Source: a virus
DNA length: 29,365 nucleotides
UHGV virus genome: UHGV-0335882
Strand: one strand, 5' to 3'
The translations under genes were made by a program, and so were the position numbers. The notes beneath the pieces are model-generated. The model was not told the DNA's origin. It ran no database searches and saw nothing but the letters and a program-made list of their open reading frames with translations. Below, one piece after another: positions 1 to 29,365 of the stretch (positions are counted from its first letter, which is position 1; each line of letters opens with the position of its first letter).

Positions 1-407
1 ATCTCAATCCCCGCCAGATGATAAGCATCCCGGAACAGCGTGTAACAGTCCGTCACCCCGTGCTCAAAGCACCGCCCGGTAAGATGCGGCACACAGCGGA
101 ATTTATGAATCTCACCCCGGCAGACCAGCCACCACGGCAAATCGCTCTGCACCTGCAGCCGCCTGTCAGCCTCACTCAGCCAGGGCAGACCACCGGGGTG
201 GCTGTGGACCAGCGCCACAATCTCACCCTGCATCTCTGCCCGCAGCCAGTCCTCCGGCGACATCCGGAAATACGCCTCCGGCTCACCGGAGATATTCACG
301 CAGGGAAAATATCTTTCCCCCTTCGGCGTTCTCACCACGAAGCCACACGACTCCGCTGGCGCACATCGCCGGGCGTGCGCCAGAATCGCTGATTCTGTCT
401 GTGTCAT
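1..407 (-). CDS. K: Tail assembly protein K, partial (N-terminal ~135 codons; 3' end lies beyond window start)
   Basis: Manual minus-strand translation from ATG at 407..405 gives MTQTESAILAHARRCAPAES..., matching the lambda gpK N-terminus as recalled. Absent from the ORF track because no stop lies in the window. Sits 5 nt downstream of the L stop, as in lambda. Confidence 0.8.
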   Translation of the reverse strand, partial: MTQTESAILAHARRCAPAESCGFVVRTPKGERYFPCVNISGEPEAYFRMSPEDWLRAEMQGEIVALVHSHPGGLPWLSEADRRLQVQSDLPWWLVCRGEIHKFRCVPHLTGRCFEHGVTDCYTLFRDAYHLAGIE

Positions 408-411
408 GGGA

Positions 412-1110
412 TTACTGCGAAAGTTTGTTAATGGAAAGGAAGCCGCCAAAGTTGCCGACGTTATTGCGGAACTTACAACCGCTCAGGCATTTGCTGCATT
501 TATCCTTCGTGATATCGGACGTTGGCTGGTCATATTCATCCGCGACAGCCGGACCGCTATAACCGCACTCGTCACCGCGATAGGTCCAGGTGCAGGTGTT
601 GGCCAGCATGATACGTCCCGGAAAAACAGCGCCATCCGTTTCCGTCGGCGTGGACAGTACAAAGGAGGCACTCACCGCGCTCAGTTCGCTGCACTGCTCA
701 ATGCGCCAGCGGCTGATCACCTCCTGCTCCGGATCGGCATAACTGTTTCCGTTGACGAAGTTCACCGCATCCAGAAAACGGGCGTAAACCTTACGCCGGA
801 CCACCGTTCCGCCGACCAGACTCTGCAGATCTTCCGCCATCCCGGTGACCATACCGTACAGGTTAGAAACCGTCAGCGTGGGGCGCGTACTGGTGCCTTT
901 GCCATTCAGTTCAAAACCGCTCCCCTGAATGGGATACGGCTGATACTGTCGCCCCTGCCAGGTGACCGGCTCACCTTTTTCGTTCTGCTCATTACAGAAA
1001 AAATAACGTTCTCCACCGACCTCTGTCAGGTCGATTTCCCAGAGCACCACGCTGGCCGACTGCTCCGCACGGGTGCATTCATTCAGTGTTTCCTGCCGGA
1101 TATCCTGCAT
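412..1110 (-). CDS. L: Minor tail protein L
   Basis: 232-aa ORF (MQDIRQETLNECTRAEQSASVVLWEIDL...) essentially identical to lambda gpL as recalled; lambda gene order M-L-K preserved. Confidence 0.95.
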   Translation of the reverse strand: MQDIRQETLNECTRAEQSASVVLWEIDLTEVGGERYFFCNEQNEKGEPVTWQGRQYQPYPIQGSGFELNGKGTSTRPTLTVSNLYGMVTGMAEDLQSLVGGTVVRRKVYARFLDAVNFVNGNSYADPEQEVISRWRIEQCSELSAVSASFVLSTPTETDGAVFPGRIMLANTCTWTYRGDECGYSGPAVADEYDQPTSDITKDKCSKCLSGCKFRNNVGNFGGFLSINKLSQ

Positions 1111-1439
1111 CAGTTCACCACCTGTTCAAACTCTGCGCTGAACTCAACACGCAGCATACTGACCCGCGACGACCATTTTGCGCAGGTCACCTTTATCTGC
1201 TGCCACTCATAAGGCGGCGTCCACAGAAAGGATTTCCAGCCCCCGTGCTCTTCCAGAAACGACTCCAGTACCGTGGCCTCCTCACGGGGGACAGAAAGCG
1301 TCACGCTGTACGTTTTCAGGTTGGCATTCAGCCCGGCAGGCGCTCGCTGAGAATAGCCATCACCAAAGCGCACCTTTCTTACAGAAGGGACCGAAGCCAC
1401 ATCCATACCGGGTTTCACTTTCCAGCGGAAGGTCTTCAT
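1110..1439 (-). CDS. M: Minor tail protein M
   Basis: 109-aa ORF (MKTFRWKVKPGMDVASVPSVRKVRFGDGY...) matches lambda gpM; overlaps the H stop by 4 nt as in lambda. Confidence 0.95.
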   Translation of the reverse strand: MKTFRWKVKPGMDVASVPSVRKVRFGDGYSQRAPAGLNANLKTYSVTLSVPREEATVLESFLEEHGGWKSFLWTPPYEWQQIKVTCAKWSSRVSMLRVEFSAEFEQVVN

Positions 1440-3997
1440 CGTCCACCTCCGGAGAACAGGCCACCATCACGCATCTGTGTCTGAATTTCATCACGGGCAC
1501 CCTTGCGGGCCATGTCATACACCGCCTTCAGAGCAGCCGGACCTATCTGCCCGTTCGTGCCGTCGTTGTTAATCACCACATGGTTATTCTGCTCAAACGT
1601 CCCGGACGCCTGCGACCGGCTGTCTGCCATGCTGCCCGGTGTACCGACATAACCGCCGGTGGCATAGCCGCGCATCAGCCGGTAAAGATTCCCCACGCCA
1701 ATCCGGCTGGTTGCCTCCTTCGTGAAGACAAACTCACCACGGTGAACAATCCCCGCTGGCTCATATTTGCCGCCGGTTCCCGTAAATCCTCCGGTTGCAA
1801 AATGGAATTTCGCCGCAGCGGCCTGAATGGCTGTACCGCCTGACGCGGATGCGCCGCCACCAACAGCCCCGCCAATGGCGCTGCCGATACTCCCGACAAT
1901 CCCCACCATTGCCTGCTTAAGCAGAATTTCTGTCATCATGGACAGCACGGAACGGGTGAAGCTGCGCCAGTTCTGCTCACTGCCGGTCAGCATCGCCGCC
2001 ATATTCTGTGCAATACCATCAAAGGTCTGCGTGGCTGCACTTTTTACCTGCGACATACTGTCCGTGGCGCTCTCTTCCCACTCACTCCAGCCGGACTTCA
2101 GGCCTGCCATCCAGTTCCCGCGAAGCTGGTCTTCAGCCGCCCAGGTCTTTTTCTGCTCTGACATGACGTTATTCAGCGCCAGCGGATTATCGCCATACTG
2201 TTCCTTCAGGCGCTGTTCCGTGGCTTCCCGTTCTGCCTGCCGGTCAGTCAGCCCCCGGCTTTTCGCATCAATGGCGGCCCGTTTTGCCCGTTGCTGCTGT
2301 GCGAATTTATCCGCCTGCTGCGCCAGCGCGTTCAGGCGCTCCTGATACGTAACCTTGTCGCCAAGTGCAGCCAGCTGGCGTTTGTACTCCAGCGTCTCAT
2401 CTTTATGCGCCAGCAGGGATTTCTCCTGTACAGACAGCTGGCGACGTTGCGCCGCCTCCTCCAGTACCGCGAACTGACTCTCCGCCTTCCACAAATCCCG
2501 GCGCTGCTGGCTGATTTTCTCATTTGCTCCGGCATGCTTCTCCAGCGTCCGGAGTTCAGCCTGAAGCGTCAGCAGGGCAGCATGAGCACTGTCTTCCTGA
2601 CGATCGCCCGCAGACACCTTCACGCCGGACTGCTTCGGCTTTTTCAGTGTCGTTTCATAGTCCTTTTTCGCTGCCGCCATCAGCGTGTTGTAATCTGCCT
2701 GCAGGATTTTTCCGTCTTTCAGGGCCTTATTCAGTTCTTCCTGACGGGCGGCATATTTCTCCAGCGGCGTCTGCAGCCGTTCGTAAGCCTTCTGCGCCTC
2801 TTCGGTATATTTCAGCCGTGACGCTTCGGTATCGCTCTGCTGCTGCGCATTTTTGTCCTGTTGACTCTGCTGTTCAGCCTTCTTTCGGGCGGCTTCAAGC
2901 GCAAGACGGGCCTTTTCACGATCATCCCAGTAACGCGCCCGCGCTTCATCGTTAACAAAATAATCATCCTTGCGCAGATTCCAGATGTCGTCTGCTTTCT
3001 TAAACGCAGCCTCTGCCTTAATCAGCATCTCCTGCGCGGTATCAGGACGACCAATATCCAGCACCGCATCCCACATGGATTTGAATGCCCGCGCAGTCCT
3101 GTCTGCCCAGGTCTCCAGCGTGCCCATGTTCTCTTTCAGGCGGCGGGTCTGGTCATCAAACCCTTTCGTTGCGGCCTCGTTCGCCGCCTGCAATGCCCCG
3201 GCTTCATCGCCGGAACGCTGCAACTGAGCAACATACGCAATCTGCTCCGCCGTCACGTTATGGAACTGGCGTGCCATCGCCGTCAGCCCCGACGTCGGGT
3301 CTGTGGTCAGCTTCCCGAAGGCTTCAGCGACCTTGTCCACCTCCACGCCGGATGCAGAGGAGAAACGCGCCACACTCTGGCTGATGGACGCAATCTGAGC
3401 CTCACCGCTTACCCCCGCCTTAACCAGTGCGCTGAGTGACTCGCTGGTCTGGTTAAACGTCAGCCCTGCCGCCTGCCCGGCTCTGGACAGGACCAGCATA
3501 CGATCTGCCGTCAGACCCGCCTGATTGCCGGAAAGGACCAGCGTTTTGTTGAAATCGGACAGGGTTGAGTTGCCCTGATACCAGGCATACGCCAGCGCAC
3601 CGGTCGCCACCGCCAGCGAGGTGGCCCCCACCATCGGCAGGGTGATCGCACCGGCAAGCCCCCTGAACATGGGGATCATCCCGCCGAAGGAGTCCTTCAC
3701 CTGCCCCCCCTGTTGCAGCAGGATCAGCCACGGACTTTGCCCGCCTGCAAGCTGCGTGGCCACGTCGGTGAACTGTGCAGGCAGCATACGCATGGCGGCT
3801 TTATACTGCCCGACGGAAATCCCCGCTTTCTGTGCAGCCAGCGCCTGTCGGCTCAGCGACTGTTCAACGACTGCCGCTGTTTTTTTCGCATCACTTTCCG
3901 TACCGGAAAAATGACGCCTGACTCTGGCCATCTGCTCGTCAAATCTGGCCGCATCCAGACTCAAATCAACGACCAGATCGCCTACCGGTTCAGCCAT
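1436..3997 (-). CDS. H: Tail tape measure protein H
   Basis: 853-aa ORF, same length as lambda gpH and near-identical along its length (MAEPVGDLVVDLSLDAARFDEQMARV... ...MRDGGLFSGGGR). Confidence 0.95.
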   Translation of the reverse strand: MAEPVGDLVVDLSLDAARFDEQMARVRRHFSGTESDAKKTAAVVEQSLSRQALAAQKAGISVGQYKAAMRMLPAQFTDVATQLAGGQSPWLILLQQGGQVKDSFGGMIPMFRGLAGAITLPMVGATSLAVATGALAYAWYQGNSTLSDFNKTLVLSGNQAGLTADRMLVLSRAGQAAGLTFNQTSESLSALVKAGVSGEAQIASISQSVARFSSASGVEVDKVAEAFGKLTTDPTSGLTAMARQFHNVTAEQIAYVAQLQRSGDEAGALQAANEAATKGFDDQTRRLKENMGTLETWADRTARAFKSMWDAVLDIGRPDTAQEMLIKAEAAFKKADDIWNLRKDDYFVNDEARARYWDDREKARLALEAARKKAEQQSQQDKNAQQQSDTEASRLKYTEEAQKAYERLQTPLEKYAARQEELNKALKDGKILQADYNTLMAAAKKDYETTLKKPKQSGVKVSAGDRQEDSAHAALLTLQAELRTLEKHAGANEKISQQRRDLWKAESQFAVLEEAAQRRQLSVQEKSLLAHKDETLEYKRQLAALGDKVTYQERLNALAQQADKFAQQQRAKRAAIDAKSRGLTDRQAEREATEQRLKEQYGDNPLALNNVMSEQKKTWAAEDQLRGNWMAGLKSGWSEWEESATDSMSQVKSAATQTFDGIAQNMAAMLTGSEQNWRSFTRSVLSMMTEILLKQAMVGIVGSIGSAIGGAVGGGASASGGTAIQAAAAKFHFATGGFTGTGGKYEPAGIVHRGEFVFTKEATSRIGVGNLYRLMRGYATGGYVGTPGSMADSRSQASGTFEQNNHVVINNDGTNGQIGPAALKAVYDMARKGARDEIQTQMRDGGLFSGGGR

Positions 3998-14348: not shown

Positions 14349-14349
14349 T

Positions 14350-15178: not shown

Positions 15179-15184
15179 ACAGTG

Positions 15185-15209: not shown

Positions 15210-15300
15210 TCTTCCATCATTCCTCGTCAGCCATGACAAAAATATAACCGCTGGCTCTTTCATTTTTCTCCTGCTTCCAGCCCCTCTCTACCTGGAAGCA

Positions 15301-16092: not shown

Positions 16093-16236
16093 ATGCAGGA
16101 TAATAAGATGAAAAAAATGTTGTTTTCTGCCGCTCTGAGTCTGTTGTCGGCATTCTGGCAATGCAATTTGGATAAAGCGGGGATTAAAAAGATAGAGGCG
16201 AGCCGGTCAGGTAGAAATGAATCAGGCTCAAAGTGA
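16093..16236 (+). pseudogene. 5' stump of a bor/iss-family lipoprotein gene (first ~15 codons conserved, then unrelated sequence to a stop)
   Basis: Translation MQDNKMKKMLFSAAL... matches the N-terminus of Iss/Bor-family proteins as recalled. The lipobox (LITGC) and the rest of the protein are missing; the frame runs into unrelated sequence and stops after 47 codons. Position and orientation match where bor sits relative to cos in lambda. Confidence 0.6.
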
Positions 16237-16879: not shown

Positions 16880-17026
16880 TAACAGTTCCCATCTGTAGGG
16901 GAGGGGCAGGCCAAATCTCTGCAACCCTGGCTGCTCAGTACCGCCGCCTGACCTTTCCTCGCATCGCCGCAGGTTCGAAAACTTTTTTTTGGAATGTGAT
17001 TAAATGATTGATAGGTAAAACCGATT
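16880..17026 (+). other. Intergenic region between HNH and small terminase; candidate cos site of the HK97-type module
   Basis: 147-bp non-coding gap at the position where HK97-type phages carry cos. Contains GC-rich motifs (GGGGAGGGGCAGG; CCGCCGCCTGACC, the latter resembling the CGCCGCC core of lambda cosN). Exact cut site not determinable by eye. Confidence 0.35.
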
Positions 17027-19266: not shown

Positions 19267-19283
19267 AACAGCTTATTACTGAT

Positions 19284-19424
19284 ATGACCGGGCTGATCGG
19301 TTTCGGTCTGCTCACTGCTGGCGTTTATCTGTATGCAGGTCTGCCAGCGTCTCTGATGCTGTCTGGCTGTTTGTTGCTGCTTTATGCACTGGTGGTGTCC
19401 ATGAGGAGAAAACATGCTTCTTGA
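19284..19424 (+). CDS. Small hydrophobic ORF (46 aa) between terminase and portal
   Basis: MTGLIGFGLLTAGVYLYAGLPASLMLSGCLLLLYALVVSMRRKHAS, a single predicted transmembrane helix; no clear Shine-Dalgarno; overlaps the portal start. Speculative. Confidence 0.25.
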   Translation: MTGLIGFGLLTAGVYLYAGLPASLMLSGCLLLLYALVVSMRRKHAS

Positions 19425-20640
19425 TGCTCTGTTTCGCAGTGAGCCTCTGGAAAATCCCTCGGTTCCGGTAACCGGAGAGGCCGCAGAGACGGATAATATT
19501 TTTGCCCGGGATGTGTATGTCAGTCCGGAAACGTCCATGAGGCTGGCTGCTGTCTATGCCTGTATTTATGTTATTTCATCCAGTGTGGCTCAGATGCCCC
19601 TGCATGTGATGCGAAAAACGAATGAGCATGTTCAGCCGGCACGCGATCACCCGTTGTTCTGGCTCGTTCATGATGAACCGAATGCCTGGCAGACCAGCTA
19701 TAAGTGGCGGGAACTGAAGCAGCGTCATGTGCTGGGGTGGGGCAATGGTTATACGTGGGTGAAACGTAATCGTCGTGGCGAGGTTACCAGTCTTGAATGC
19801 TGTATGCCATGGGAAACCACGTTACTTAACACCGGAGGGCGTCATACCTACGGTGTGTATAACGAAGAGGGTGCATTTGCGGTAAGTCCGGACGACATGA
19901 TCCATATCAGGGCGCTGGGAAACAATCAGAAAATGGGACTGAGTCCGATCATGCAGCATGCTGAAACCATTGGTATGGGAATGAGTGGTCAGCAGTATAC
20001 CAGTGCTTTTTTTAACGGTAATGCCCGTCCTGCCGGGATTATTTCTGTGAAAAATGAACTGAACGAACAGAGTTGGAGCAGGCTCAAGAATATGTGGCAG
20101 CGGGCGGTGACAGCGCTTCGCAGCCAGGAAAATAAAACCATGTTGCTGCCTGCGCAACTGGATTACCGCGCTCTGACAGTTTCTCCGGTGGATGCTCAGA
20201 TCATTGATATGACCAAGCTGAACCGGTCGATGATTGCCGGGATTTTTAATGTCCCGGCGCACATGATTAATGACCTGGAAAAAGCCACATTTTCGAATAT
20301 TACGCAGCAGGCGATTCAGTTTGTTCGCTACACGATGATGCCCTGGGTTGCGAACTGGGAGCAGGAGCTTAACCGTCGCCTGTTTACCCGTACAGAACGG
20401 GCTGCCGGGTATTACGTTCGTTTCAACCTCACGGGGTTGCTCCGTGGGACCCCACAGGAGCGTGCGCAGTTCTATCACTTTGCCATTACAGATGGCTGGA
20501 TGAGTCGGAATGAAGCCAGGGCATTTGAGGATATGAACCCGGTTGACGGTCTGGATGAAATGCTGGTCAGCGTAAATGCAGCAAATCCGTTGAATAACTT
20601 TAAAGATACGAAAGGCAAAGAGGAAAAGAACGATGAATGA
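19414..20640 (+). CDS. Portal protein (HK97 family)
   Basis: 408-aa ORF following the large terminase, GAGGAG Shine-Dalgarno 5 nt upstream; length and position typical of HK97-family portal. Confidence 0.93.
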   Translation: MLLDALFRSEPLENPSVPVTGEAAETDNIFARDVYVSPETSMRLAAVYACIYVISSSVAQMPLHVMRKTNEHVQPARDHPLFWLVHDEPNAWQTSYKWRELKQRHVLGWGNGYTWVKRNRRGEVTSLECCMPWETTLLNTGGRHTYGVYNEEGAFAVSPDDMIHIRALGNNQKMGLSPIMQHAETIGMGMSGQQYTSAFFNGNARPAGIISVKNELNEQSWSRLKNMWQRAVTALRSQENKTMLLPAQLDYRALTVSPVDAQIIDMTKLNRSMIAGIFNVPAHMINDLEKATFSNITQQAIQFVRYTMMPWVANWEQELNRRLFTRTERAAGYYVRFNLTGLLRGTPQERAQFYHFAITDGWMSRNEARAFEDMNPVDGLDEMLVSVNAANPLNNFKDTKGKEEKNDE

Positions 20641-21232
20641 CCGTGAAACGCGCTGTTACAGCGGGGAGGTGCGGGCGGAACAATATGATAATGCCCCGAC
20701 CCACATTCTGGGCTATGGCTCGGTATTTAACAGTCGTTCAGAACCTCTGTGGGGATTTCGTGAAATCATCAAGCCGGGGGCTTTTGATGATGTACTGAAT
20801 GATGATGTACGTGGCTTGTTTAATCATGATCCTAATTTCATTCTCGGACGAAGTTCTGCCGGCACGTTGTCATTGTCGGTGGATGAACGCGGTTTACGTT
20901 ATGACATTGTTGCACCGGATACTCCGACTATTTGTGACCTGGTGCTATCTCCAATGTTGCGTGGTGACATTAATCAGTCCTCGTTCGCGTTTCGTGTCGC
21001 CCGTGACGGAGAGAGCTGGTATGAAGACGACGAGGGGATTGTTATCCGGGAAATCACGCGCATTTCTCGTCTGTATGACGTCAGCCCGGTGACATATCCG
21101 GCCTATCAGGACGCAGACTCTGGTGTCCGCTCAATGAAAGCCTGGCAGGAAGCGCGGGCGAGTGGTGCGCTGAAGAAAGCTGTTAACGAACGAATGGCGC
21201 GTGAGCGTCTTTTGACCCTTCTTAATGCATAA
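20633..21232 (+). CDS. Prohead maturation protease (HK97 family)
   Basis: 199-aa ORF overlapping the portal stop (ATGAATGA), located between portal and major capsid genes; size and position typical of HK97-family prohead protease. Confidence 0.9.
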   Translation: MNDRETRCYSGEVRAEQYDNAPTHILGYGSVFNSRSEPLWGFREIIKPGAFDDVLNDDVRGLFNHDPNFILGRSSAGTLSLSVDERGLRYDIVAPDTPTICDLVLSPMLRGDINQSSFAFRVARDGESWYEDDEGIVIREITRISRLYDVSPVTYPAYQDADSGVRSMKAWQEARASGALKKAVNERMARERLLTLLNA

Positions 21233-21246
21233 GGATACTACTGACG

Positions 21247-22464
21247 ATGAAACTTCATGAGATGAAGCAAAAACGAAACACCATTGCAAAGGATATGCGT
21301 GCACTGCATGAAAAAATTGGTGATAACGCATGGACTGATGAGCAACGGGCAGAGTGGAACAGGGCGAAAGCTGAGCTGGATGCGCTGGATGAGCAAATCG
21401 CCCGTGAAGAAGAGTTGCGCCGTCAGGATCAGGCATATGTGGATGAGTCCGGGCCGGAAGAGCGCCAGAATAATGAGGCGGAGAACGGGAAAAAGGCGGT
21501 GGAAGAGAAGCGCGCTGCGGCATTTAACCGTTTTCTGCGTGCCGGATTTGCAGAACTGAATGCTGAAGAGCGTAATCTGATGCGTGAACTGCGGGCTCAG
21601 AGTGTAACAACGGATTCTCAGGGCGGATATACGGTGCCCACGCAGATGCGTAACAAAATCATTGACACCATGAAGGCTTATGGCGGGATTGCCAGTGTGG
21701 CGCAACTTCTGACCACATCAACCGGGCAGGATATCACCTGGTCAACGTCTGATGGCACGACTGAAGAGGGCGAACTGCTGGCGGAAAATACAGCCGCAAC
21801 GGAACAGGATGTGACGTTCGGGACCGCTATTCTGGGGGCTAAAAAGCTGTCATCAAAAATAATTCGTGTGTCCAATGAGCTGCTCCAGGACAGTGGGGTG
21901 GATATTGAATCTTATCTGGCAAACCGTATTGCCCAGCGTATTGGTCGTGGAGAGGCAAAATATCTGGTTCAGGGGACCGGAACGGGATCACCGTTACAGC
22001 CAAAAGGGCTGGCAGCGTCGGTGACGGGAACCATCCAGACTGTAGCCTCTGCCGCTTTCACCTGGAAAGAAATGAATGCCCTGAAACATGCCATTGATCC
22101 GGCATATCGTGGTGGGCCGAAATACCGCTGGGCATTCAATGATGCCACATTGCAGACTATTGAAGAGATGGAGGATGGACAGAAACGCCCGTTATGGCTG
22201 CCGGATATTGCAGGCGGTACGCCGGCTACTGTGCTGGGGATCCCTTATGTTATTGATCAGGCTATTGACGGGATTGGTACCGGAAAAAAATTCATTTTCC
22301 TGGGGGATTTCAACCGCTTTATCATTCGCCGCGTTACTTATATGGAACTGAAACGTCTGGTTGAGCGTTATGCTGAGTTTGATCAGGTGGCATTTCTGGC
22401 TTTCCATCGTTTTGACTGTGTGCTGGAAGATGTGGCAGCCATCAAGGCGCTCACTGGCAAATAA
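21247..22464 (+). CDS. Major capsid protein (HK97 fold, with N-terminal delta/scaffold domain)
   Basis: 405-aa ORF; N-terminal ~100 aa is charged and coiled-coil-like (EQRAEWNRAKAELDALDEQIAREEELRRQ), typical of a delta domain removed by the adjacent protease; followed by an intrinsic terminator. Confidence 0.93.
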   Translation: MKLHEMKQKRNTIAKDMRALHEKIGDNAWTDEQRAEWNRAKAELDALDEQIAREEELRRQDQAYVDESGPEERQNNEAENGKKAVEEKRAAAFNRFLRAGFAELNAEERNLMRELRAQSVTTDSQGGYTVPTQMRNKIIDTMKAYGGIASVAQLLTTSTGQDITWSTSDGTTEEGELLAENTAATEQDVTFGTAILGAKKLSSKIIRVSNELLQDSGVDIESYLANRIAQRIGRGEAKYLVQGTGTGSPLQPKGLAASVTGTIQTVASAAFTWKEMNALKHAIDPAYRGGPKYRWAFNDATLQTIEEMEDGQKRPLWLPDIAGGTPATVLGIPYVIDQAIDGIGTGKKFIFLGDFNRFIIRRVTYMELKRLVERYAEFDQVAFLAFHRFDCVLEDVAAIKALTGK

Positions 22465-22485
22465 CCACTCGTTGTTCAGTTACAG

Positions 22486-22507
22486 ACCGCGCCGACGCGG
22501 TTTTTTT
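22486..22507 (+). terminator. Rho-independent terminator after the major capsid gene (ACCGCG-CCGA-CGCGGT followed by T7)
   Basis: 6-bp GC-rich stem, 4-nt loop and a 7-T run, 22 nt downstream of the capsid stop codon. Confidence 0.6.
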
Positions 22508-22540
22508 ATGCCCGCACAGTGTTGCGGGCAGGAGTTTCTG

Positions 22541-22858
22541 ATGGCAGCAATAGTGGAAAAACTCAGGGCGCAGTGCCGTATTGATACAGATGATGCAACT
22601 GATGATGAGTTACTGATGCTGTATTTCCGGGCTGCCTGCCGCAAGGCAGAAAATTTTATCAACCGTAAGCTTTATGAGGAGACGGTGCCGGAAGGTGATC
22701 CTGAAGGGGTGCTTATAGCTGATGATGTTTTGCTGGCGCTCATGTTGCTGGTCGGGCACTGGTACGAAAACCGGGAAAATTCCTCAGATGTCAGCAAGGC
22801 ACCAGTCCCGTTTGGTTTTTCTTCTCTGCTGGAGCCTTATCGTTTTATTCCTTTGTAG
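22541..22858 (+). CDS. Head-tail connector protein (gp6-like)
   Basis: Start at ATG 22541 with GGAG 6 nt upstream (track ORF extends 5' through the terminator). Product MAAIVEKLRAQCRIDTDDATDDELLMLYFRAACRKAENFINRKL... resembles the gp6-like connector family. Confidence 0.75.
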   Translation: MAAIVEKLRAQCRIDTDDATDDELLMLYFRAACRKAENFINRKLYEETVPEGDPEGVLIADDVLLALMLLVGHWYENRENSSDVSKAPVPFGFSSLLEPYRFIPL

Positions 22859-22866
22859 GAGGAGAC

Positions 22867-23205
22867 ATGCAGGCGGGCAGATTACGTGATCGCGTAATTA
22901 TTCTGAATGTCACCACCGCCCGCTCTCCGTCAGGGCATCCGGTGGAGACGGTGACGGAGGGAGCTACCGTATGGGCAGAAGTTAAGGGTATCAGCGGGAG
23001 GGAGATAATCTCAGGCGGAGCAGAAACCGCTCAGGCTACGGTCAGAGTCTGGATGAGATTCCGGCGCGATGTGACAGCGACTTCACGTCTGAAAGTGCTG
23101 ACCGGTGCATTTAAAGGGGCCATTCTGGGTATAGAAGGTCCACCAATACCGGATGCACGCGCTACCCGGCTTGAAATACTCTGCAGCCTGAAGGGGAATG
23201 TGTGA
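22867..23205 (+). CDS. Head closure / head-tail joining protein (gp7-like)
   Basis: 112-aa ORF (MQAGRLRDRVIIL...WAEVKGISGREI...VRVWMRFRRDV...) with the pattern typical of head closure proteins; position after the connector gene. Confidence 0.75.
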   Translation: MQAGRLRDRVIILNVTTARSPSGHPVETVTEGATVWAEVKGISGREIISGGAETAQATVRVWMRFRRDVTATSRLKVLTGAFKGAILGIEGPPIPDARATRLEILCSLKGNV

Positions 23206-23651
23206 TGGATTTCAGTCTTGATTTTTCCGGCCTGGCGGATATTGCACGGGATTTGGAGACGCTCAGCAGGGCAGAAAACAATAAGGTTCTGCGCGATGCC
23301 ACCCGTGCCGGTGCTGAAGTTATGCGGGATGCAGTTGTTGAACGTGCGCCGGAGCGAACCGGGAAACTGAAGAAAAATGTGGTTGTTCTCACTCAGCGTT
23401 CAAAGCGTCGGGGGGAAATTATCTCGGGTGTCCACATTCGCGGACGGAACCTGCGAACCGGAAACAGTGATAACAGCATGAAAGCCAGCGATCCCCGAAA
23501 TGCATTTTACTGGCGCTTTGTGGAGCTGGGAACGATAAACATGCCCGCGCATCCATTCATTCGCCCGGCTTTCGATACGACAGAGGAACTGGCAGCACGG
23601 ATTGCCATACAGCGAATGAATCAGGCTATTGATGAGGTCTTAAGTAAATGA
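23202..23651 (+). CDS. HK97 gp10-family neck/tail-completion protein
   Basis: 149-aa ORF containing RFVELGTINMPAHPFIRPAFD, the conserved motif of the HK97 gp10 family; 4-nt overlap with the upstream gene. Confidence 0.75.
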   Translation: MMDFSLDFSGLADIARDLETLSRAENNKVLRDATRAGAEVMRDAVVERAPERTGKLKKNVVVLTQRSKRRGEIISGVHIRGRNLRTGNSDNSMKASDPRNAFYWRFVELGTINMPAHPFIRPAFDTTEELAARIAIQRMNQAIDEVLSK

Positions 23652-23992
23652 GAGAGGCCACACTGTATTCCCTGTTGTCTCAGCTGGCCGGAGGACAGGT
23701 TTATCCTTATGTGGTCCCACTGACGGAGGGAAAGCCTGCGGTATCTCCGCCGTGGCTGGTGTTTTCTGTGGTGTCTGACACGGCATCTGATGTGCTTGAT
23801 GGGCAGGCTGAATCCAGAATTACCGTGCAGATCGATGTCTGGGCGACAGTACCTGATGACGCAGATAATATTCGTGAGCAGGCGCTTGATGCGGTAAGAA
23901 AACTGGCACCCTCCGTTATTTCTAAAACGCAGGGTTATGATCCTGACTCCCGTCTGAGCAGAGCCACGCTTGAATTTCAGGTAATAGCCTGA
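23648..23992 (+). CDS. Tail terminator/completion protein (gp11-like)
   Basis: 114-aa ORF directly upstream of the major tail gene with 4-nt overlap to the preceding gene; assigned by position and size. Confidence 0.65.
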   Translation: MREATLYSLLSQLAGGQVYPYVVPLTEGKPAVSPPWLVFSVVSDTASDVLDGQAESRITVQIDVWATVPDDADNIREQALDAVRKLAPSVISKTQGYDPDSRLSRATLEFQVIA

Positions 23993-24012
23993 GGTCATTA
24001 ATGATTTTACCC

Positions 24013-24036
24013 ACCCGCCGCTGGCGGGTTTTTTTA
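24013..24036 (+). terminator. Terminator-like hairpin before the major tail gene (ACCCGCC-GCT-GGCGGGT followed by T7)
   Basis: 7-bp GC stem with a 3-nt loop followed by a T-run, in the 60-nt gap before the major tail protein start codon. Confidence 0.5.
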
Positions 24037-24052
24037 TTTTCAGGAGACGAGT

Positions 24053-24757
24053 ATGTCCTCTAATTTTGAGCGTTCGCAACTGACGAAAATTATGATTTCG
24101 TCTGCACCGGTAACAGCAGAAACCCTGGATTCTGCCAGCTATCTTGGCCTGAGCTGTACAATCAAAGAGGTGCAGTTTACCGCAGGACAAAAGCAGGATA
24201 TTGATGTCACCACGCTGTGTTCTGTTGAGCAGGAAAATATTAACGGTCTTGGTGCCGCGTCAGAGATTTCCATGTCAGGCAACTTTTATCTGAATGCTGC
24301 CCAGAACGCGTTGCGCAGTGCCTATGACAATGACACCACGTATGGCTTTAAAGTTATTTTTCCGTCAGGCAACGGATTTACCTTTATGGCAGAGGTGCGT
24401 CAGCATACCTGGTCTGCAGGAACCAATGGTGTTGTGGCTGCAACGTTTTCCTTGCGCCTGAAAGGTAAACCTGTGCTGACGACAGAGCCGCTGAAAGTGA
24501 AGGCCGATTTAAAAAGCACGCTGCGGGTTGCTTCCGGAGCGAAACTTGAAATGGCGGTTGAGGCTGCGGGTGGTGTGCCGCCTTATTCTTATGTCTGGAA
24601 GAAAGGTGGTTCTCCTGTTTCCGGACAGACGGCGGCAACGTTCAGTAAGGCATCGGCAGTATCCGGTGATGCGGGTGCATATACCTGCGAGATTTCTGAT
24701 TCAGCAAGCCCGGTTAACAAAGTGACCTCCACTTCCTGCACTGTAACCGTCAGTTAA
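24053..24757 (+). CDS. Major tail protein with C-terminal Ig-like domain
   Basis: 234-aa ORF following the neck genes with a GGAG ribosome-binding site. C-terminal ~85 aa (…GGVPPYSYVWKKGGSPVSGQTAATFSKASAVSGDAGAYTCEISDSASPVNKVTSTSCTVTVS) has immunoglobulin-like sequence character. Confidence 0.8.
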   Translation: MSSNFERSQLTKIMISSAPVTAETLDSASYLGLSCTIKEVQFTAGQKQDIDVTTLCSVEQENINGLGAASEISMSGNFYLNAAQNALRSAYDNDTTYGFKVIFPSGNGFTFMAEVRQHTWSAGTNGVVAATFSLRLKGKPVLTTEPLKVKADLKSTLRVASGAKLEMAVEAAGGVPPYSYVWKKGGSPVSGQTAATFSKASAVSGDAGAYTCEISDSASPVNKVTSTSCTVTVS

Positions 24758-24771
24758 TGAGGATGGATGTG

Positions 24772-25143
24772 ATGACTAAAAATATCCGTAATCTGGCACT
24801 GGCAACGATGTCGGGGTTTCGCCATAAAACCGTTGATGTGCCTGAATGGGAGGGAGCAACGGTTGTGTTACGGGAACCTTCTGCAGAAGCCTGGTTGCGC
24901 TGGCAGGAGATCGTTAAAGCAAAAGATGATGAGACACCGTTATCCGTTGCGGAGCGCGCCCGCCGAAATCTGGAGGCAGATGTTGAACTGTTCATTGATG
25001 TTCTGTGTGATACCGGACTGCAACCCGTATTTTCAGAGGATGATCGTGAACAGGTGATTGCCGTGTATGGCCCGGTGCATGCGCGGCTTCTTCGGCAGTC
25101 TCTGGAACTGATCAGTGATGCCGGCGAGGTTAAAAAAAAGTAG
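24772..25143 (+). CDS. Tail assembly chaperone (gpG-like)
   Basis: ORF between major tail and tape measure genes, acidic, ending …DAGEVKKK. Start at ATG 24772 with GAGGA 8 nt upstream; an alternative ATG at 24757 overlaps the upstream stop. Confidence 0.75.
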   Translation: MTKNIRNLALATMSGFRHKTVDVPEWEGATVVLREPSAEAWLRWQEIVKAKDDETPLSVAERARRNLEADVELFIDVLCDTGLQPVFSEDDREQVIAVYGPVHARLLRQSLELISDAGEVKKK

Positions 25144-25445
25144 CGCTTCCGGGGATGCGTTTTCTGATGATGCTGGCGCTCAGGATGGGGCGCACATTGT
25201 CAGAGTTACGCCGGGAAATGTCCGCATCAGAAATCATGATGTGGGCAGAATTTGACAGGTTCAGCCCGCTGGGGGACGAACGGGCTGATATCCGGGCTGC
25301 CCAGATTGTTTCAGCTGTTTACGGTGCGCAGGGGGTCAAAGTGCCACTGAATGATGCGCTTCTTCAGTGGGAGAAGGAGCAGACAGAAGGCGTATCAGAT
25401 CCATTTGCCGGACTGGAAAACGCGCTTTTAATAGTGTCTCAGTGA
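24772..25445 (+). CDS. Predicted tail chaperone frameshift fusion (gpGT-like), -1 shift at A AAA AAG
   Basis: Downstream ORF (…MRFLMMLALRMGRTLSELRREMSASEIMMWAEF…) is in the -1 frame and has no separate ribosome-binding site; slippery heptamer A AAA AAG sits at the end of the upstream chaperone frame. Confidence 0.6.
25134..25140 (+). other. Putative -1 programmed frameshift slippery heptamer A AAA AAG
   Basis: AAA (25135-25137) and AAG (25138-25140) are the last two sense codons of the chaperone zero frame; the -1 frame continues open for 101 codons to the stop at 25443-25445. Confidence 0.6.
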
Positions 25446-25453
25446 GTCAACAT

Positions 25454-25476
25454 AACCGCTTCGGCGGTTTTTTTTC
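25454..25476 (+). terminator. Terminator-like hairpin before the tape measure gene (AACCGC-TTCG-GCGGTT followed by T8)
   Basis: 6-bp stem with a UUCG-type tetraloop followed by an 8-T run, between the chaperone-T stop and the tape measure start. Confidence 0.55.
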
Positions 25477-25485
25477 GTCCGGAGA

Positions 25486-28400
25486 ATGAGTGTGGCGACA
25501 TTACGTGAACTGATTATTAAAATCTCGGCAAATTCCCGGTCATTCCAGTCAGAGATCTCCCGGGCTTCGCGTATGGGGCAGGATTACTACCGTACCATGC
25601 AGAACGGAGGCCGGCAGTCCGCTGCTGCATCCCGTGAAATGCGGCGTGCACTGGCAGAAGTGACGGATCAGATAAATACAGCTAAATCTTCGGCACTGAA
25701 TATGGCGGGGGCATTTGCCGGGGCTTTTGCTACCGGTCATCTTATTTCTTTCGCCGATGAGTGGAATTCAGTAAATGCCCGTCTGAAGCAGGCCTCACAG
25801 TCCAGTGATGATTTTCAGGCATCACAGCGTGAATTAATGGCGATCAGCCAGAGAACGGGGACGGCGTTTTCTGATAACGCCAGCCTTTTTGCCCGTTCTG
25901 CAGCTTCCATGCGGGAGTATGGTTACAGTTCTGAGGAGGTACTGAAAGTCACCGAGGCGATCTCCACGGGCCTGAAATTATCCGGTGCCAGTACAGCAGA
26001 AGCCAGTTCGGTGATCACGCAGTTCAGTCAGGCACTGGCGCAGGGAGTGCTGCGCGGTGAAGAGTTTAACTCGGTGAATGAGAACGGCGATCGTGTTATT
26101 CGTGCGCTGGCTGCGGGAGTGGGGGTTGCCCGTAAGGATCTGAAGGCCATGGCGGATAACGGAAAGTTGACCGCCGATAAGGTTGTTCCTGCACTGATTA
26201 GTCAGCTTGGGGCATTACGTGATGAATATGCGGCAATGCCTGATACGGTTTCATCCTCTGCAACCAAAGTTGAAAACGCCTTTATGGCCTGGGTTGGTGG
26301 TGCGAACGAGGCAAGCGGAGTGACGAAGACGCTCTCCGGTGTGCTGAATGGTATTGCAGGCAATATTGACACTGTGGCAACCGCTGCCGGTGCTCTGGTT
26401 GCCGTCGGGGTAGCCCGATATTTTGGCAATATGGCGTCTTCTGCTGGATCTGCAACTGCCGGATTAATTACTGCAGCCAGAAACGAAGTGGCTCTTGCGG
26501 AAGCGCAGCTCCGGGGGACACAGATAGCAACAGCCAGGGCGCGTGCGGCGGTTTATCGTGCGCAACAGGCGGTTGTTGCTGCTCGCGGTACCGAAAGGCA
26601 GGCAGCCGCAGAAGCGAAACTGGCTGCTGCCCAGGCATCACTTACCCGTAATATTGCGGCCAGAACAGCAGCACAGACAACGCTGAATACTGTCACGTCA
26701 GTGGGAAGTCGTCTGTTAAGTGGAGCACTGGGACTGGTTGGTGGGGTGCCGGGGCTTGTCATGCTGGGGGCCGCGGCCTGGTACACGATGTATCAGAATC
26801 AGGAGCAGGCCAGAGAATCTGCACGCCAGTATGCCGCAAAAATCGACGAAATTCGCCAGAAAACGTCGGCAATGTCGCTTCCTGAAGCGTCAGATAATGA
26901 GGAAAAGACGCGGCAGGCACTTGATGAGCAAAACAGGTTAATTGACGAGCAGAAAAGTAAGATTAAATCCTTACAGGAAAAAATTGCTGGCTATCAGTAT
27001 GTGCTGGCAAACCCGGGCTGGACAACCGATAACGGTTTTATGATTAACCACATGACGTCGGTAAAAACAGTCACAGAAGGGCTTGCAGAAGCAACAAATC
27101 AACTGGCAGTTGAACAGTCCCGTCTCACACAAATGCAGGGCAAAGCGCAATCCATTCAGGATGTGCTTGCCGGGCTGGAGGAGCGGCGGGTTGCGTTGAT
27201 CCGTCAACAGGCGGCGGAACAAAACAAAGCGTATCAGTCCCTGTTGATCATGAATGGGCAGCATACCGAGTTTAATCGCCTTCTTGGGCTTGGTAATGAA
27301 TTACTTCAGCAGCGACAGGGGCTGGTGAATGTACCGTTACGGCTACCACAGGCAACCCTGGATGATAAACAGCAGACCGCACTGAATAACAGCAAGCGCG
27401 AACTGGCTCTGTCCCGCCTTAAGGGGGAAGCGCGTGAGCGTGCCCGACTGGGCTATGCTGCGGATGATCTCGGCTTTGTGGGAGAGGCGTATCAGACAGC
27501 CAGACAGAATTATATCAATAACTCACTGGATGCCTGGCGAAATAACCAGGCAAATAAACCCAAAGCGCATAAAAAGACCGAAGCGGAAAAAACAGAAGAT
27601 ATTTATAAACGGCTGATTAAACAGCAAAAAGAACAGATAGCACTGGCAGGGCAGAATACTGAACTGGCTAAGATGAAATATCAGGTCAGTCAGGGCGAAT
27701 TATCAACCCTGTCAGAAGCGCAGAAAAAAACGCTTTTGCAGAATGCAGCACTCATCGACCAGAAAAAGATTCGTGAGCAGCTTGCTGCGTATGAAAGCAG
27801 CCTGGCGGACAGTAATGCCAGTACCCGGGCGTCTAACGACGCGCAGTTACTGGGATATGGTGAAGGCTCACGGATGCGTGAACGACTCCAGGAAATGTGG
27901 AGTATCCGGCATGAGTTTGAGCAGAAAAATAACGAGCTGCTGAGACAGTATCAGGCCGGAGAAATTGAAGAAGCCCTGTGGAAACAGGAGAAAGAACTGA
28001 ATAAAAAATATCTGGAAGAGCGTCTCAGCGATCAGCAGGATTATTATGCAAAGGCCGATGCTTTACGTAATAACTGGAATGCAGGACTCCAGGAGGGGCT
28101 GACCAACTGGGCAGACAGTGCCACCGATTATGCTTCGCAGGCGGCAGATGCTGTCGTTTCCACTATGGACGGGCTGGTATCAAATATTTCCGATGCGCTG
28201 GCCGGAAATGTTGTGGACTGGAGAAACTGGGGGAGTTCAATTCTCCAGGAAGTTTCAAAAATTCTGATGAATGCGGCCATTGTTAACGGACTGAAGTCAC
28301 TCTCCGGTGCCGGAGGGTGGCTTGGTACGGTCGGCGGATGGATTTCGGGGGCGGTGGCAAACGCAAAAGGTGGTGTTTACACATCGGCAAATCTGAGTGC

Positions 28401-28719
28401 TTACAGTAACACTATTGTGGATACACCGACGTATTTTGCTTTTGCGAAAGGTGCCGGGCTGATGGGCGAGGCCGGGCCTGAAGCTATCATGCCACTGACA
28501 CGGGCAGCGGACGGCTCTCTTGGGGTCAGAGCCATTGGCAATGTGAATAGTGGCGGGGGGGTTGTTTATTCTCCCGTGTATCACATCAGCATTCAGAATC
28601 AAGGGAGCAATGGCGAGATAGATGCGCGCTCAGCCAGGGGACTGGTGGATCTGATCGACAGCAGGGTTGTGTCAATTATGCAGTCATCGCGTCGGGATGG
28701 AGGATTGTACAGTGCCTGA
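25486..28719 (+). CDS. Tail tape measure protein (1077 aa)
   Basis: Very long, Ala/Gln-rich, coiled-coil-like ORF after the chaperone pair. C-terminal region (NWNAGLQEGLTNWADSATDYASQ…GGLYSA) parallels the lambda gpH C-terminus (NWMAGLKSGWSEWEESATDSMSQ…GGLFSGGGR). Confidence 0.93.
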   Translation: MSVATLRELIIKISANSRSFQSEISRASRMGQDYYRTMQNGGRQSAAASREMRRALAEVTDQINTAKSSALNMAGAFAGAFATGHLISFADEWNSVNARLKQASQSSDDFQASQRELMAISQRTGTAFSDNASLFARSAASMREYGYSSEEVLKVTEAISTGLKLSGASTAEASSVITQFSQALAQGVLRGEEFNSVNENGDRVIRALAAGVGVARKDLKAMADNGKLTADKVVPALISQLGALRDEYAAMPDTVSSSATKVENAFMAWVGGANEASGVTKTLSGVLNGIAGNIDTVATAAGALVAVGVARYFGNMASSAGSATAGLITAARNEVALAEAQLRGTQIATARARAAVYRAQQAVVAARGTERQAAAEAKLAAAQASLTRNIAARTAAQTTLNTVTSVGSRLLSGALGLVGGVPGLVMLGAAAWYTMYQNQEQARESARQYAAKIDEIRQKTSAMSLPEASDNEEKTRQALDEQNRLIDEQKSKIKSLQEKIAGYQYVLANPGWTTDNGFMINHMTSVKTVTEGLAEATNQLAVEQSRLTQMQGKAQSIQDVLAGLEERRVALIRQQAAEQNKAYQSLLIMNGQHTEFNRLLGLGNELLQQRQGLVNVPLRLPQATLDDKQQTALNNSKRELALSRLKGEARERARLGYAADDLGFVGEAYQTARQNYINNSLDAWRNNQANKPKAHKKTEAEKTEDIYKRLIKQQKEQIALAGQNTELAKMKYQVSQGELSTLSEAQKKTLLQNAALIDQKKIREQLAAYESSLADSNASTRASNDAQLLGYGEGSRMRERLQEMWSIRHEFEQKNNELLRQYQAGEIEEALWKQEKELNKKYLEERLSDQQDYYAKADALRNNWNAGLQEGLTNWADSATDYASQAADAVVSTMDGLVSNISDALAGNVVDWRNWGSSILQEVSKILMNAAIVNGLKSLSGAGGWLGTVGGWISGAVANAKGGVYTSANLSAYSNTIVDTPTYFAFAKGAGLMGEAGPEAIMPLTRAADGSLGVRAIGNVNSGGGVVYSPVYHISIQNQGSNGEIDARSARGLVDLIDSRVVSIMQSSRRDGGLYSA

Positions 28720-29053
28720 GCCTGAAGTTTTTAACTGGATCCCCCGTGAGGGGATGGAGACGACACGAAAGCCATCAGTTATTACGGTAAAGTTTGGTGA
28801 CGGATATGAACAGAGACGGGCTGGTGGTCTGAATGCGGATCTGAAAACGTTTAAACCGGTATTTCGTGTCACAGATGAATATTCCCGTGCCGCGCTGGAC
28901 AGTTTTTTATCCCGTCATGCCGGGATTCGTGCTTTTTTGTGGCGTCCGCCAAAACACAACAGGACTGTCCGGGTTGTCTGCAGGGAGTGGAGCATTTCGG
29001 ATAATGCCATGTATACCGATTTTAACTGTACCTTTGAAGAGGTCACTCACTGA
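28712..29053 (+). CDS. Minor tail protein, gpM-like
   Basis: Shares the KFGDGYEQR…GLNADLKT… core with lambda gpM (VRFGDGYSQRAPAGLNANLKT) but is diverged overall. Start set at GTG 28712 with GGAGGA 7 nt upstream, overlapping the tape measure stop; alternative ATG at 28697. Confidence 0.8.
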   Translation: MPEPEVFNWIPREGMETTRKPSVITVKFGDGYEQRRAGGLNADLKTFKPVFRVTDEYSRAALDSFLSRHAGIRAFLWRPPKHNRTVRVVCREWSISDNAMYTDFNCTFEEVTH

Positions 29054-29365
29054 TGCAGGATATACAGCAGGAAACACTCAATGAGTGCACTAAAACGGAG
29101 CAATCCGCGCTGATCGTGCTCTGGGAAATTGATCTGACAGAGGTCGGCGGAGATCGTTATTTCTTCTGTAATGAGCAGAACGAAAAAGGTGAACCGGTCA
29201 CCTGGCAGGGGCGGCAGTATCAGGCATACCCCATTCAGGGGACGGGATTTGAACTGAACGGTAAGGGCAGTGCTGCCCGTCCGACACTGACGGTCTCTAA
29301 CCTGCACGGCATGGTCACCGGGATGGCGGAAGACCTGCAGAGTCTGGTCGGCGGAACGGTGGTCA
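29053..29365 (+). CDS. Minor tail protein, gpL-like, partial (N-terminal 104 codons; continues beyond window end)
   Basis: ATG at 29053 overlaps the M-like stop (TGATG). Translation MQDIQQETLNECTKTEQSALIVLWEIDLTEVGGDRYFFCNEQNEKGEPVTWQGRQYQAYPIQG… is about 88% identical to the gpL encoded at 412-1110 on the other strand. Confidence 0.9.
   Translation, partial: MQDIQQETLNECTKTEQSALIVLWEIDLTEVGGDRYFFCNEQNEKGEPVTWQGRQYQAYPIQGTGFELNGKGSAARPTLTVSNLHGMVTGMAEDLQSLVGGTVV

What the first reader, a model, noticed from the sequence alone, without database searches (positions are those of the whole stretch)
29053..29365. Inverted, highly similar L genes bracket the window; mosaic joint at the M/L boundary of the HK97-type module
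The partial L-like gene at the right end (plus strand) and lambda L at 799-1110 (minus strand) encode N-termini that are about 88% identical, with identical DNA runs of 20-30 nt (e.g. TTCTGTAATGAGCAGAACGAAAAAGGTGA; CTGCAGAGTCTGGTCGGCGGAACGGTGGT). The adjacent M genes are much more diverged (shared core only). So the HK97-type module switches abruptly from low to high similarity with the lambda-type module at the M/L boundary, a classic lambdoid mosaic joint. The two L copies also form inverted repeats about 28 kb apart, a substrate for homologous recombination that would invert the intervening segment.
Basis: seen in the sequence. Interest (0 to 1): 0.5.

Follow-up and report, generated by a model that had tools for sequence, protein, structure and literature searches.

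The report
Ordinary prophage mosaic joint; doubtful adjacency
Two different E. coli ST131 prophages share a lambda-type tail-tip gene block that starts exactly at the M/L gene boundary, a textbook case of phage mosaicism. Their apparent placement 28 kb apart rests on a join found in no other genome searched.

Summary
The partial L gene at 29053-29365 (+) and lambda-type L at 1110-412 (-) are 88.5% identical in protein and 85% in DNA. The adjacent M genes are about 40% identical in protein and barely align as DNA. Similarity rises within about 20 nt of the M stop/L start.

Extending the right-hand prophage in a reference genome shows this is the left edge of a 4.56-kb block (L-K-I and about 2.5 kb of J) at 92.4% identity. 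Synonymous divergence drops from saturated in M (2.15) to 0.58, 0.28 and 0.09 across L and K. Phage HK97's own L is only 37-38% identical to these L proteins. More than 100 phage records lose similarity at the same nucleotide. So this is a real recombination boundary and a well-known kind.

The inversion idea is not supported as stated. The window is two pieces, each 100% identical to E. coli ST131, from prophages about 0.87-0.89 Mb apart in strains 4/0 and EC958. They are joined at 16137|16138 inside a truncated iss gene, with no homology at the join. That join is absent from 5,426 complete E. coli genomes and from the phage, plasmid, viral, metagenome and GTDB collections. No hybrid showing an actual inversion was found. 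Interest is low.

The parts
29053..29365 (+). First 313 nt (104 codons) of gene L (minor tail / hub protein L) of the HK97-like-shaft prophage ('B'). It is a lambda-type allele and is cut off by the window end.
   Evidence: Pfam PF05100, E 7e-33. 88.5% aa and 85% nt identity to the other L. 100% identical to strain 4/0 NZ_CP023849.1, where the full 232-aa gene is annotated as phage minor tail protein L.
412..1110 (-). Complete gene L of the lambda/phage-21-type prophage ('A').
   Evidence: Pfam PF05100, E 3e-101. 99% aa identity to lambda gpL.
1..407 (-). 5' part of gene K of prophage A. It belongs to the shared tip block and runs off the left end of the window.
   Evidence: RefSeq annotation of the identical locus in strain 4/0 calls it a C40 family peptidase. 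Window 1-1114 matches B's L-K at 92.4% over 1117 nt.
1110..1439 (-). Gene M (distal tail protein) of prophage A.
   Evidence: Pfam PF05939, E 1e-39. 99% aa identity to lambda gpM.
28697..29053 (+). Gene M of prophage B. It is a third M type: about 40% aa identity to both lambda M and HK97 M, and 63% to phage JLK-2012 M.
   Evidence: Pfam PF05939, E 1e-31. Identity tables.
29033..29055 (+). Joint zone in B, from the last ~20 nt of M through the overlapping stop/start (TGATG). Similarity to lambda-type phages begins here. The counterpart in A is 1130-1108 (-).
   Evidence: The inverted-repeat arm starts at 29033. About 115 of 128 phage records match only from window 29049/29050 onward. Boundary alignment.
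25492..28719 (+). Tape measure gene of prophage B, on the divergent side of the joint. It is 59% aa identical to HK97 gp16 and about 31% to lambda H.
1436..3997 (-). Tape measure gene H of prophage A, 99% identical to lambda H, on the divergent side of the joint.
16137..16138 (.). Join between two ST131 loci that are not contiguous in reference genomes. The left side is codon 10 of iss/bor of prophage A. The right side is intergenic DNA upstream of the HNH gene of prophage B. There is no microhomology.
   Evidence: Window 1-16137 = reverse complement of NZ_CP023849.1 1271701-1287837, and 16138-29365 = reverse complement of 2146099-2159326, both 100%. Junction sequences. The join was not found.

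Best explanation
The M/L boundary at the right end of the window is a real lambdoid mosaic boundary of a familiar kind.

Prophage B combines three parts. Its head genes are HK97-fold and its tail shaft (V, tape measure) is HK97-like. Its M gene is of its own type. Its tail tip (L, K, I and the N-terminal two-thirds of J) is lambda-type. Prophage A is essentially lambda/phage 21 in its late genes. The two therefore share the tip block and nothing upstream of it.

How it most likely arose (inferred). An ancestor of the HK97-like-shaft lineage was joined to a lambda-type tip at or next to the M/L gene boundary. After that, tip alleles were exchanged repeatedly by homologous or homeologous recombination within the shared L-K-I-J DNA, for example by phage Red-type recombinases. 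Homology ends at M, so the left crossover of every later exchange is confined to the 5' end of L. That would leave the observed gradient of divergence across L and K.

Why the joint sits there (inferred from the published lambda tail structure). gpM forms the hexameric distal tail ring. It docks onto the tube on one face and stacks electrostatically on the trimeric gpL/gpJ ring on the other. The gene boundary therefore coincides with a boundary between structural modules.

The window's back-to-back arrangement of the two prophages is not corroborated. It most probably comes from mis-assembly or concatenation and is not a stable genome structure.
For: Shown here:
- One 4,557-nt alignment at 92.4% identity starts 20 nt before L. 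It runs through L, K, I and about 2.5 kb of J. V, G, H and M upstream do not align as DNA.
- Nei-Gojobori dS is 2.2 in H and 2.15 in M (both saturated). It is 0.58 in L codons 1-104, 0.28 in L codons 105-232, 0.088 in K, 0.52 in I and 0.40 in J.
- L is not intrinsically invariant. HK97 L is 37-38% identical to lambda, A and B L, while B L is 93% identical to lambda L.
- In 128 phage records matching window 28000-29365, only 8 span M. About 115, including lambda, HK629, mEp460 and DE3, match only from window 29049/29050.
- Phage JLK-2012 has B's shaft type. B vs JLK shows no step (V 72, H 77, M 63, L 76, K 85). A vs JLK shows the same step at M/L (V 27, H 27, M 44, L 77, K 87).
- 227 phage records carry at least 80% of the tip block. 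85 complete E. coli genomes link a lambda-type shaft to B-type distal tail genes.

From the literature:
- gpM is a hexameric ring between the gpV tube and the gpL/gpJ trimer ring (PMC10721106).
- Red recombines DNA that is 22% diverged, and 'shoulders' of intermediate identity flank exchanged patches (PMC2327257).
- Tail genes co-transfer as modules in lambdoid phages (PMC9836094).
- Prophage A in EC958 carries exo, bet and gam.

For the doubtful adjacency.
Against: - The order and number of exchange events is inferred from only four or five genomes. No formal breakpoint or phylogenetic-incongruence test was run.
- The 5' third of L is not closer to JLK-2012 than to lambda. The gradient may therefore partly reflect locally variable codons (aa 57-75 differ in all three lineages) and not only a recombination shoulder.
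- The structural rationale for the joint position is an argument from lambda's structure. It was not tested for B's M.
- I cannot see reads, so a real, private rearrangement at 16137|16138 is not excluded.
Confidence: 0.85

Rival explanations
1. There was no exchange. M and L diverged together from one ancestor, and L is simply under much stronger purifying selection than M.
For: dN/dS is low in L (0.036/0.40) and most mismatches are synonymous. gpL sits in a tightly packed hub and carries an Fe-S cluster (PMC10721106).
Against: Constraint on the protein does not protect synonymous sites, yet dS falls from saturated (2.15) in M to 0.58, 0.28 and 0.09 across L and K. HK97 L performs the same role at only 37% identity to lambda L. 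The high identity runs for 4.5 kb across four genes and an intergenic gap.
Confidence: 0.03
2. The similarity comes from recent gene conversion between the two prophages while they were resident in the same ST131 chromosome.
For: Both prophages sit in one chromosome in inverted orientation. Exact runs reach 113 nt, and K is 96.5% identical. Prophage A encodes Red functions.
Against: B's tip block is closer to free phages (cdtI 95.6%, mEp460 94.8%, 434 and lambda-like 94%) than to co-resident A (92.4%). No long identical tract shared only by A and B was seen.
Confidence: 0.05
3. The window is a true genome structure. The two L-K(-I-J) copies are inverted repeats about 28 kb apart, and they flip the segment between them.
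For: The inverted arms are real. With sequence beyond the window ends they would be about 4.5 kb at 92% identity, with exact runs of 50-113 nt. That is long enough for RecA- or Red-mediated exchange (PMC2327257).
Against: The two halves are 100% identical to loci 0.87-0.89 Mb apart in strains 4/0 and EC958. The join at 16137|16138 truncates iss after 10 codons and has no homology. On the reference strand it reads as the end of an 888-kb segment joined to its own start. That is the signature of a duplication or circle junction, not of an inversion or a deletion. It occurs in 0 of 5,426 complete E. coli genomes and in no phage, plasmid, viral, metagenome or GTDB contig. The fusion ORF is not on record. 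No near-100% hybrid between A's shaft genes and B's distal tail genes exists in complete genomes; the best is 98%.
Confidence: 0.1

Closest known systems
Lambdoid phage mosaicism with joints at gene boundaries. This is the modular genome picture drawn from lambda, HK97, HK022 and phage 21 comparisons (my recollection of Juhala et al. 2000, which I did not read here). It was analysed quantitatively in PMC2327257 and PMC9836094.
   Same: There is an abrupt switch from unalignable to more than 90% identical DNA, placed at a gene boundary. A multi-gene structural module (L-K-I-J) is shared between phages whose other genes are unrelated. A zone of intermediate identity sits next to the more similar core.
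   Different: Nothing essential differs. The specific instance (ST131 prophage at icd versus the ST131 HK97-like-shaft prophage) may not have been described individually.
Bacteriophage lambda tail tip complex: gpM, gpL, gpK, gpI, gpJ (structure in PMC10721106).
   Same: A's proteins are 96-99% identical to lambda M, L and K. B's L, K, I and J are 81-95% identical to lambda's. The Cys173/182/205/212 positions of the gpL Fe-S site are present in both L proteins.
   Different: B pairs this tip with an M that is only 40% identical to lambda M, and with an HK97-like tube and tape measure. The M-to-L/J contact must therefore tolerate, or have adapted to, a heterologous M.
Phage HK97 (NC_002167).
   Same: B shares with HK97 an HNH endonuclease next to the terminase small subunit, an HK97-family prohead protease, an HK97-fold capsid, and V and H at 72% and 59% identity.
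   Different: Terminase and capsid are only 29% and 23% identical. HK97's own L, K, I and J are 34-38% identical to B's. B is therefore not an HK97 relative in its tail tip.
Large chromosomal inversions by recombination between inverted prophages or other repeats in E. coli. This is known from my own knowledge for O157:H7 prophages. ST131 examples via rRNA operons are in bioRxiv 10.1101/2022.05.07.487787.
   Same: In native ST131 genomes A and B are inverted relative to each other and share 4.5 kb at 92% identity.
   Different: No genome carrying the predicted recombinant was found. The ST131 inversions reported in that preprint involve rRNA operons, not these prophages.

Membership tests
Phage minor tail protein L (Pfam PF05100; lambda gpL) | Sequence match to the family profile above the curated cut-off | tested here: met
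   Window 29053-29364: 114 bits against a cut-off of 25. Full B gene from the reference: 330 bits. A gene: 337 bits.
Phage minor tail protein L (Pfam PF05100; lambda gpL) | C-terminal four-cysteine Fe-S site (lambda Cys173, 182, 205, 212) | tested here: met
   Cysteines occupy those positions in both A and B full-length L. For B this part lies outside the window and was read from the 100%-identical reference locus.
Phage minor tail protein M / distal tail protein (Pfam PF05939) | Sequence match to the family profile above the curated cut-off, with the gene placed between the tape measure and L | tested here: met
   136 bits (A) and 110 bits (B) against a cut-off of 39. Gene order H-M-L holds in both.
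Recombination (mosaic) joint between phage modules | Abrupt change in nucleotide identity within a few tens of bases | tested here: met
   100-nt windows go 0.42, 0.74, 0.91. 30-nt windows go 0.4-0.5, 0.77, 0.87.
Recombination (mosaic) joint between phage modules | Different evolutionary depth on the two sides, shown by synonymous divergence and not just protein constraint | tested here: met
   dS is 2.15 in M against 0.58, 0.28 and 0.088 in L 5', L 3' and K.
Recombination (mosaic) joint between phage modules | The same modules found in other combinations in independent genomes | tested here: met
   About 115 phage records share only the L side. 227 records carry the tip block. JLK-2012 shows the same step against A.
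Recombination (mosaic) joint between phage modules | Statistically supported breakpoint or tree incongruence (GARD/RDP-type test) | not tested
   No formal test was run. The inference rests on pairwise profiles.
Invertible segment bounded by inverted repeats | Both repeat copies lie on one contiguous molecule at the stated spacing | tested here: not met
   The contiguity depends on the join 16137|16138. That join is absent from every collection searched, and the halves map 0.87-0.89 Mb apart in strains 4/0 and EC958.
Invertible segment bounded by inverted repeats | Both orientations, or recombinant junctions, observed in a population | tested here: not met
   A composite query for the A-shaft/B-distal-tail junction found 85 genomes, but at 98% identity or less. 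None was the near-100% hybrid an ST131 inversion would give. Read-level heterogeneity cannot be tested with these tools.

The most novel reading that the evidence does not exclude
The join at 16137|16138 is a real, private rearrangement in the source strain. It would be an illegitimate junction placing the packaging ends of two different prophages back to back. The two 4.5-kb lambda-type tip modules would then become inverted repeats flanking about 28 kb. Recombination between them would swap which receptor-binding end (J C-terminus, lom, side fibres) follows which tail shaft.
Probability: 0.08. Interest if true: 0.4.

Novelty: already known. Interest (0 to 1): 0.12.

Why it matters
It matters little beyond being a clean worked example. 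It shows that the lambda-type tail-tip block L-K-I-J travels between E. coli prophages with unrelated heads and shafts. It also shows that the exchange boundary coincides with the gpM ring / gpL-gpJ ring interface in the virion. The practical point is a caution. The window joins two ST131 prophages that are normally about 0.9 Mb apart. Any inference that relies on their adjacency, including the proposed 28-kb inversion, first needs read-level confirmation.

Tried and rejected
- I looked for the 16137|16138 join in many places. These were a 5-kb and a 201-nt query against 5,426 complete E. coli genomes, phage records, plasmids, and an exact 40-mer in viral, metagenome and GTDB contigs. I also tried the fusion ORF with two start codons in the gene-position index and the neighbourhoods of the HNH gene in 10 places. 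Nothing was found. The HNH look-up read only 24 of 9,224 blocks, so it is weak evidence.
- I looked for microhomology or an IS element at the join and found none. Homologous recombination between the two iss copies would not give this topology. It would produce lysis-A/heads-B and lysis-B/heads-A hybrids, not heads-A next to heads-B.
- I tested whether the window ends coincide with repeat edges, as de Bruijn contig ends would. The right end stops one base before a 56-nt exact repeat. The left end lies inside an 85-nt repeat after passing the same 56-nt repeat. The pattern is not consistent, so this was dropped.
- I tested whether the 5' part of B's L is a remnant of a JLK-2012-like allele. It is not closer to JLK than to lambda.
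- I considered recent gene conversion between the co-resident prophages and rejected it.
- The ST131 wound-isolate preprint mentions large inversions, but these are rRNA-mediated and unrelated to these prophages. The EC958 paper describes invertase-driven tail-fibre switching in other prophages, not this locus.

Full report
**What is in the window.** The window holds two phage late-gene arrays that diverge from the middle.

- Positions 1-14348 (minus strand) read K(partial)-L-M-H-T-G-V-U-Z-FII-FI-E-D-C-B-W-A-Nu1. These proteins are 97-99% identical to phage lambda from the terminase through L.
- To the right of that array lie a lambda/phage-21-type cos, a TonB-like fragment and the start of iss/bor.
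- Positions 16529-29365 (plus strand) read HNH endonuclease, P27-family small terminase, large terminase, portal, HK97-family protease, capsid, connectors, tube, chaperones, a 1075-aa tape measure, M and the first 104 codons of L.

I call these prophage A and prophage B.

**Check of the observation.**

- The ORF at 29053 starts with an ATG that overlaps the M stop codon (TGATG). The same arrangement occurs at 1112-1108 on the other strand.
- Pfam places both L sequences in PF05100 and both M sequences in PF05939.
- The visible L N-termini share 92 of 104 residues (88.5%) and 266 of 313 nt (85%), without gaps. 32 of the 47 differences are at third codon positions.
Runs of that length are expected at 85% identity (P = 0.26 for a run of at least 30), so they are not independent evidence.
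- The M proteins are 39-40% identical, and their DNA is about 48% identical in a codon alignment.
- Sliding identity stays at 0.3-0.6 through the tape-measure end and M. It rises to 0.77-0.87 in the 30 nt around the M stop/L start, then to 0.9-0.97.
- The repeat finder independently reports inverted arms at 799-1130 and 29033-29364.

**Where the sequence comes from.**

- Window 1-16137 is 100% identical to the reverse complement of E. coli ST131 strain 4/0 (NZ_CP023849.1) 1271701-1287837.
- Window 16138-29365 is 100% identical to the reverse complement of 2146099-2159326 of the same chromosome.
- In that genome, and in the ST131 reference EC958, prophage A sits at icd on the plus strand and prophage B about 0.87-0.89 Mb away on the minus strand.

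**The internal join at 16137|16138.**

- It falls after codon 10 of A's iss gene. On the B side it falls in intergenic DNA upstream of the HNH gene.
- There is no shared sequence at the join and no insertion sequence.
- Read on the reference strand, the join connects position 2159326 to position 1271701. That is the topology of a tandem-duplication or circle junction of an 888-kb segment, not of an inversion or a deletion.
- Recombination between the two iss copies would give different products.
- The join is absent from all 5,426 complete E. coli genomes. It is also absent from phage records, plasmids, and viral, metagenome and GTDB contigs. The fusion ORF is not on record.

I therefore treat the adjacency as uncorroborated and most likely an assembly or concatenation artefact. 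Without reads, a private rearrangement cannot be excluded.

**What the M/L step really is.**

- Because B's locus is identical to the reference, it can be read beyond the window end. A and B share one alignment of 4,557 nt at 92.4% identity. It starts 20 nt before the L start and runs through L, K, I and the first ~2.5 kb of J.
- Everything upstream (V, G, H, M) is unalignable as DNA. Downstream, identity becomes patchy.
- The 313 nt visible in the window are the least similar part of this block. Identity is 85% for L codons 1-104, 94% for codons 105-232 and 96.5% for K. Exact runs reach 113 nt.

**Recombination or constraint?** Three results argue for separate histories on the two sides of the boundary.

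1. Synonymous divergence is saturated in H (2.2) and M (2.15). It is 0.58, 0.28 and 0.088 in L 5', L 3' and K.
2. L is not an intrinsically frozen protein. HK97 L is only 37-38% identical to the L proteins of lambda, A and B, whereas B's L is 93% identical to lambda's.
3. The boundary recurs.
   - Of 128 phage records that match window 28000-29365, only 8 extend across M. About 115, including lambda itself, HK629, mEp460 and DE3, match only from window 29049/29050, four to five bases before the L start.
   - Phage JLK-2012 has B's shaft type and is uniformly moderately similar to B (V 72, H 77, M 63, L 76, K 85%). Against A it shows the same step at M/L (V 27, H 27, M 44, L 77, K 87%).

So M/L is the standing edge of homology between lambda-type and HK97-like-shaft lineages, and tip alleles have moved across it more than once.

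**Composition of prophage B.**

- Terminase and capsid are 29% and 23% identical to HK97.
- V and tape measure are 72% and 59% identical to HK97.
- M is about 40% identical to both lambda and HK97.
- L, K, I and J are 93, 95, 81 and 88% identical to lambda, and 34-38% to HK97.

'HK97-type' is fair for the fold and the shaft, but not for the tip.

**Is the similarity due to the two prophages living in one chromosome?** No. B's tip block is 93-95.6% identical to many free phages (cdtI, mEp460, 434, lambda-like isolates). 227 phage records cover at least 80% of it. That is more than its 92.4% identity to co-resident A.

**Likely mechanism (inferred).**

- A lambda-type tip was joined to an HK97-like shaft at or beside the M/L boundary.
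- Later exchanges used the shared L-K-I-J DNA. Homology stops at M, so left-hand crossovers pile up in the 5' end of L. This would leave a graded 'shoulder' of the kind described for lambdoid phages (PMC2327257).
- That paper also shows that lambda Red recombines DNA 22% diverged. Prophage A in EC958 carries exo, bet and gam.
- One caveat: B's L 5' part is not closer to JLK-2012 than to lambda, and one patch (aa 57-75) varies in all three lineages. Part of the gradient may therefore be local variability.
- The position of the joint makes structural sense. In the lambda virion, gpM is a hexameric ring that binds the tube on one face. Through its E-loops it stacks electrostatically on the trimeric gpL/gpJ ring (PMC10721106).
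- Tail genes are known to co-transfer as modules in lambdoid phages (PMC9836094).

**The inversion proposal.**

- The repeats are real. With the sequence beyond the window they are long enough to recombine.
- The 28-kb spacing, however, rests on the uncorroborated join.
- In native genomes an exchange between the two tip blocks would invert about 0.86 Mb and swap the distal tail genes between the prophages.
- I built a composite query of A's V-G-T-H-M followed by B's J 3' end-lom-IS200-side fibre. It found 85 genomes with that linkage, but at 98% identity or less and in other lineages. None was the near-100% hybrid that an ST131 inversion would create.
- That result again shows the tip and distal module travelling with both shaft types. 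It gives no evidence that the proposed inversion has happened.

**Verdict.** It is an ordinary, well-understood feature of lambdoid phages, seen here in known ST131 prophages. The inverted-repeat/inversion reading depends on an adjacency that is probably not real. Interest is low.

Noticed in passing
window 16108-16236 (join at 16137|16138): The iss/bor gene of the lambda-type prophage is cut after 10 codons and fused to unrelated intergenic DNA of the other prophage. This gives a 42-aa chimeric ORF. The window is a composite of two ST131 loci that lie about 0.87-0.89 Mb apart in strains 4/0 and EC958.
   Followed up: yes
window 15991-16137 vs L004 34343-34491: Both prophages natively carry an iss/bor gene. 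The 149 nt covering its promoter region and first 30 nt are 95% identical between them. In the native chromosome these form a second pair of inverted repeats between the two prophages.
   Followed up: partly
window 14373-14537: The cos region of the lambda/phage-21-type prophage. The reverse complement of the lambda cohesive-end sequence GGGCGGCGACCT lies at 14526-14537. A 26-nt inverted repeat at 14373-14429 lies between it and Nu1.
   Followed up: no
window 16529-17509: An HNH endonuclease gene lies immediately upstream of a P27-family small terminase and the large terminase. This is the arrangement known from HK97-like cos phages.
   Followed up: no
L018 4879-6643 (EC958 1259878-1261642, outside the window): The lambda-type prophage at icd in ST131 EC958 encodes exo, bet and gam. 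These form a Red-type system able to recombine diverged DNA.
   Followed up: no
L004 14642-15100 (strain 4/0, outside the window): An IS200C copy sits between lom and the side tail fibre gene of the HK97-like-shaft prophage. In the lambda-type prophage the side-fibre gene is split into two pseudogene fragments (L003 21316-23337).
   Followed up: no
window 29221-29280 (L codons ~57-75): A short patch of L differs in all three lineages compared (A/lambda, B, JLK-2012), at about 73% nt identity in every pair. It is flanked by segments at more than 90% identity. It may be a locally variable surface of the hub protein.
   Followed up: partly
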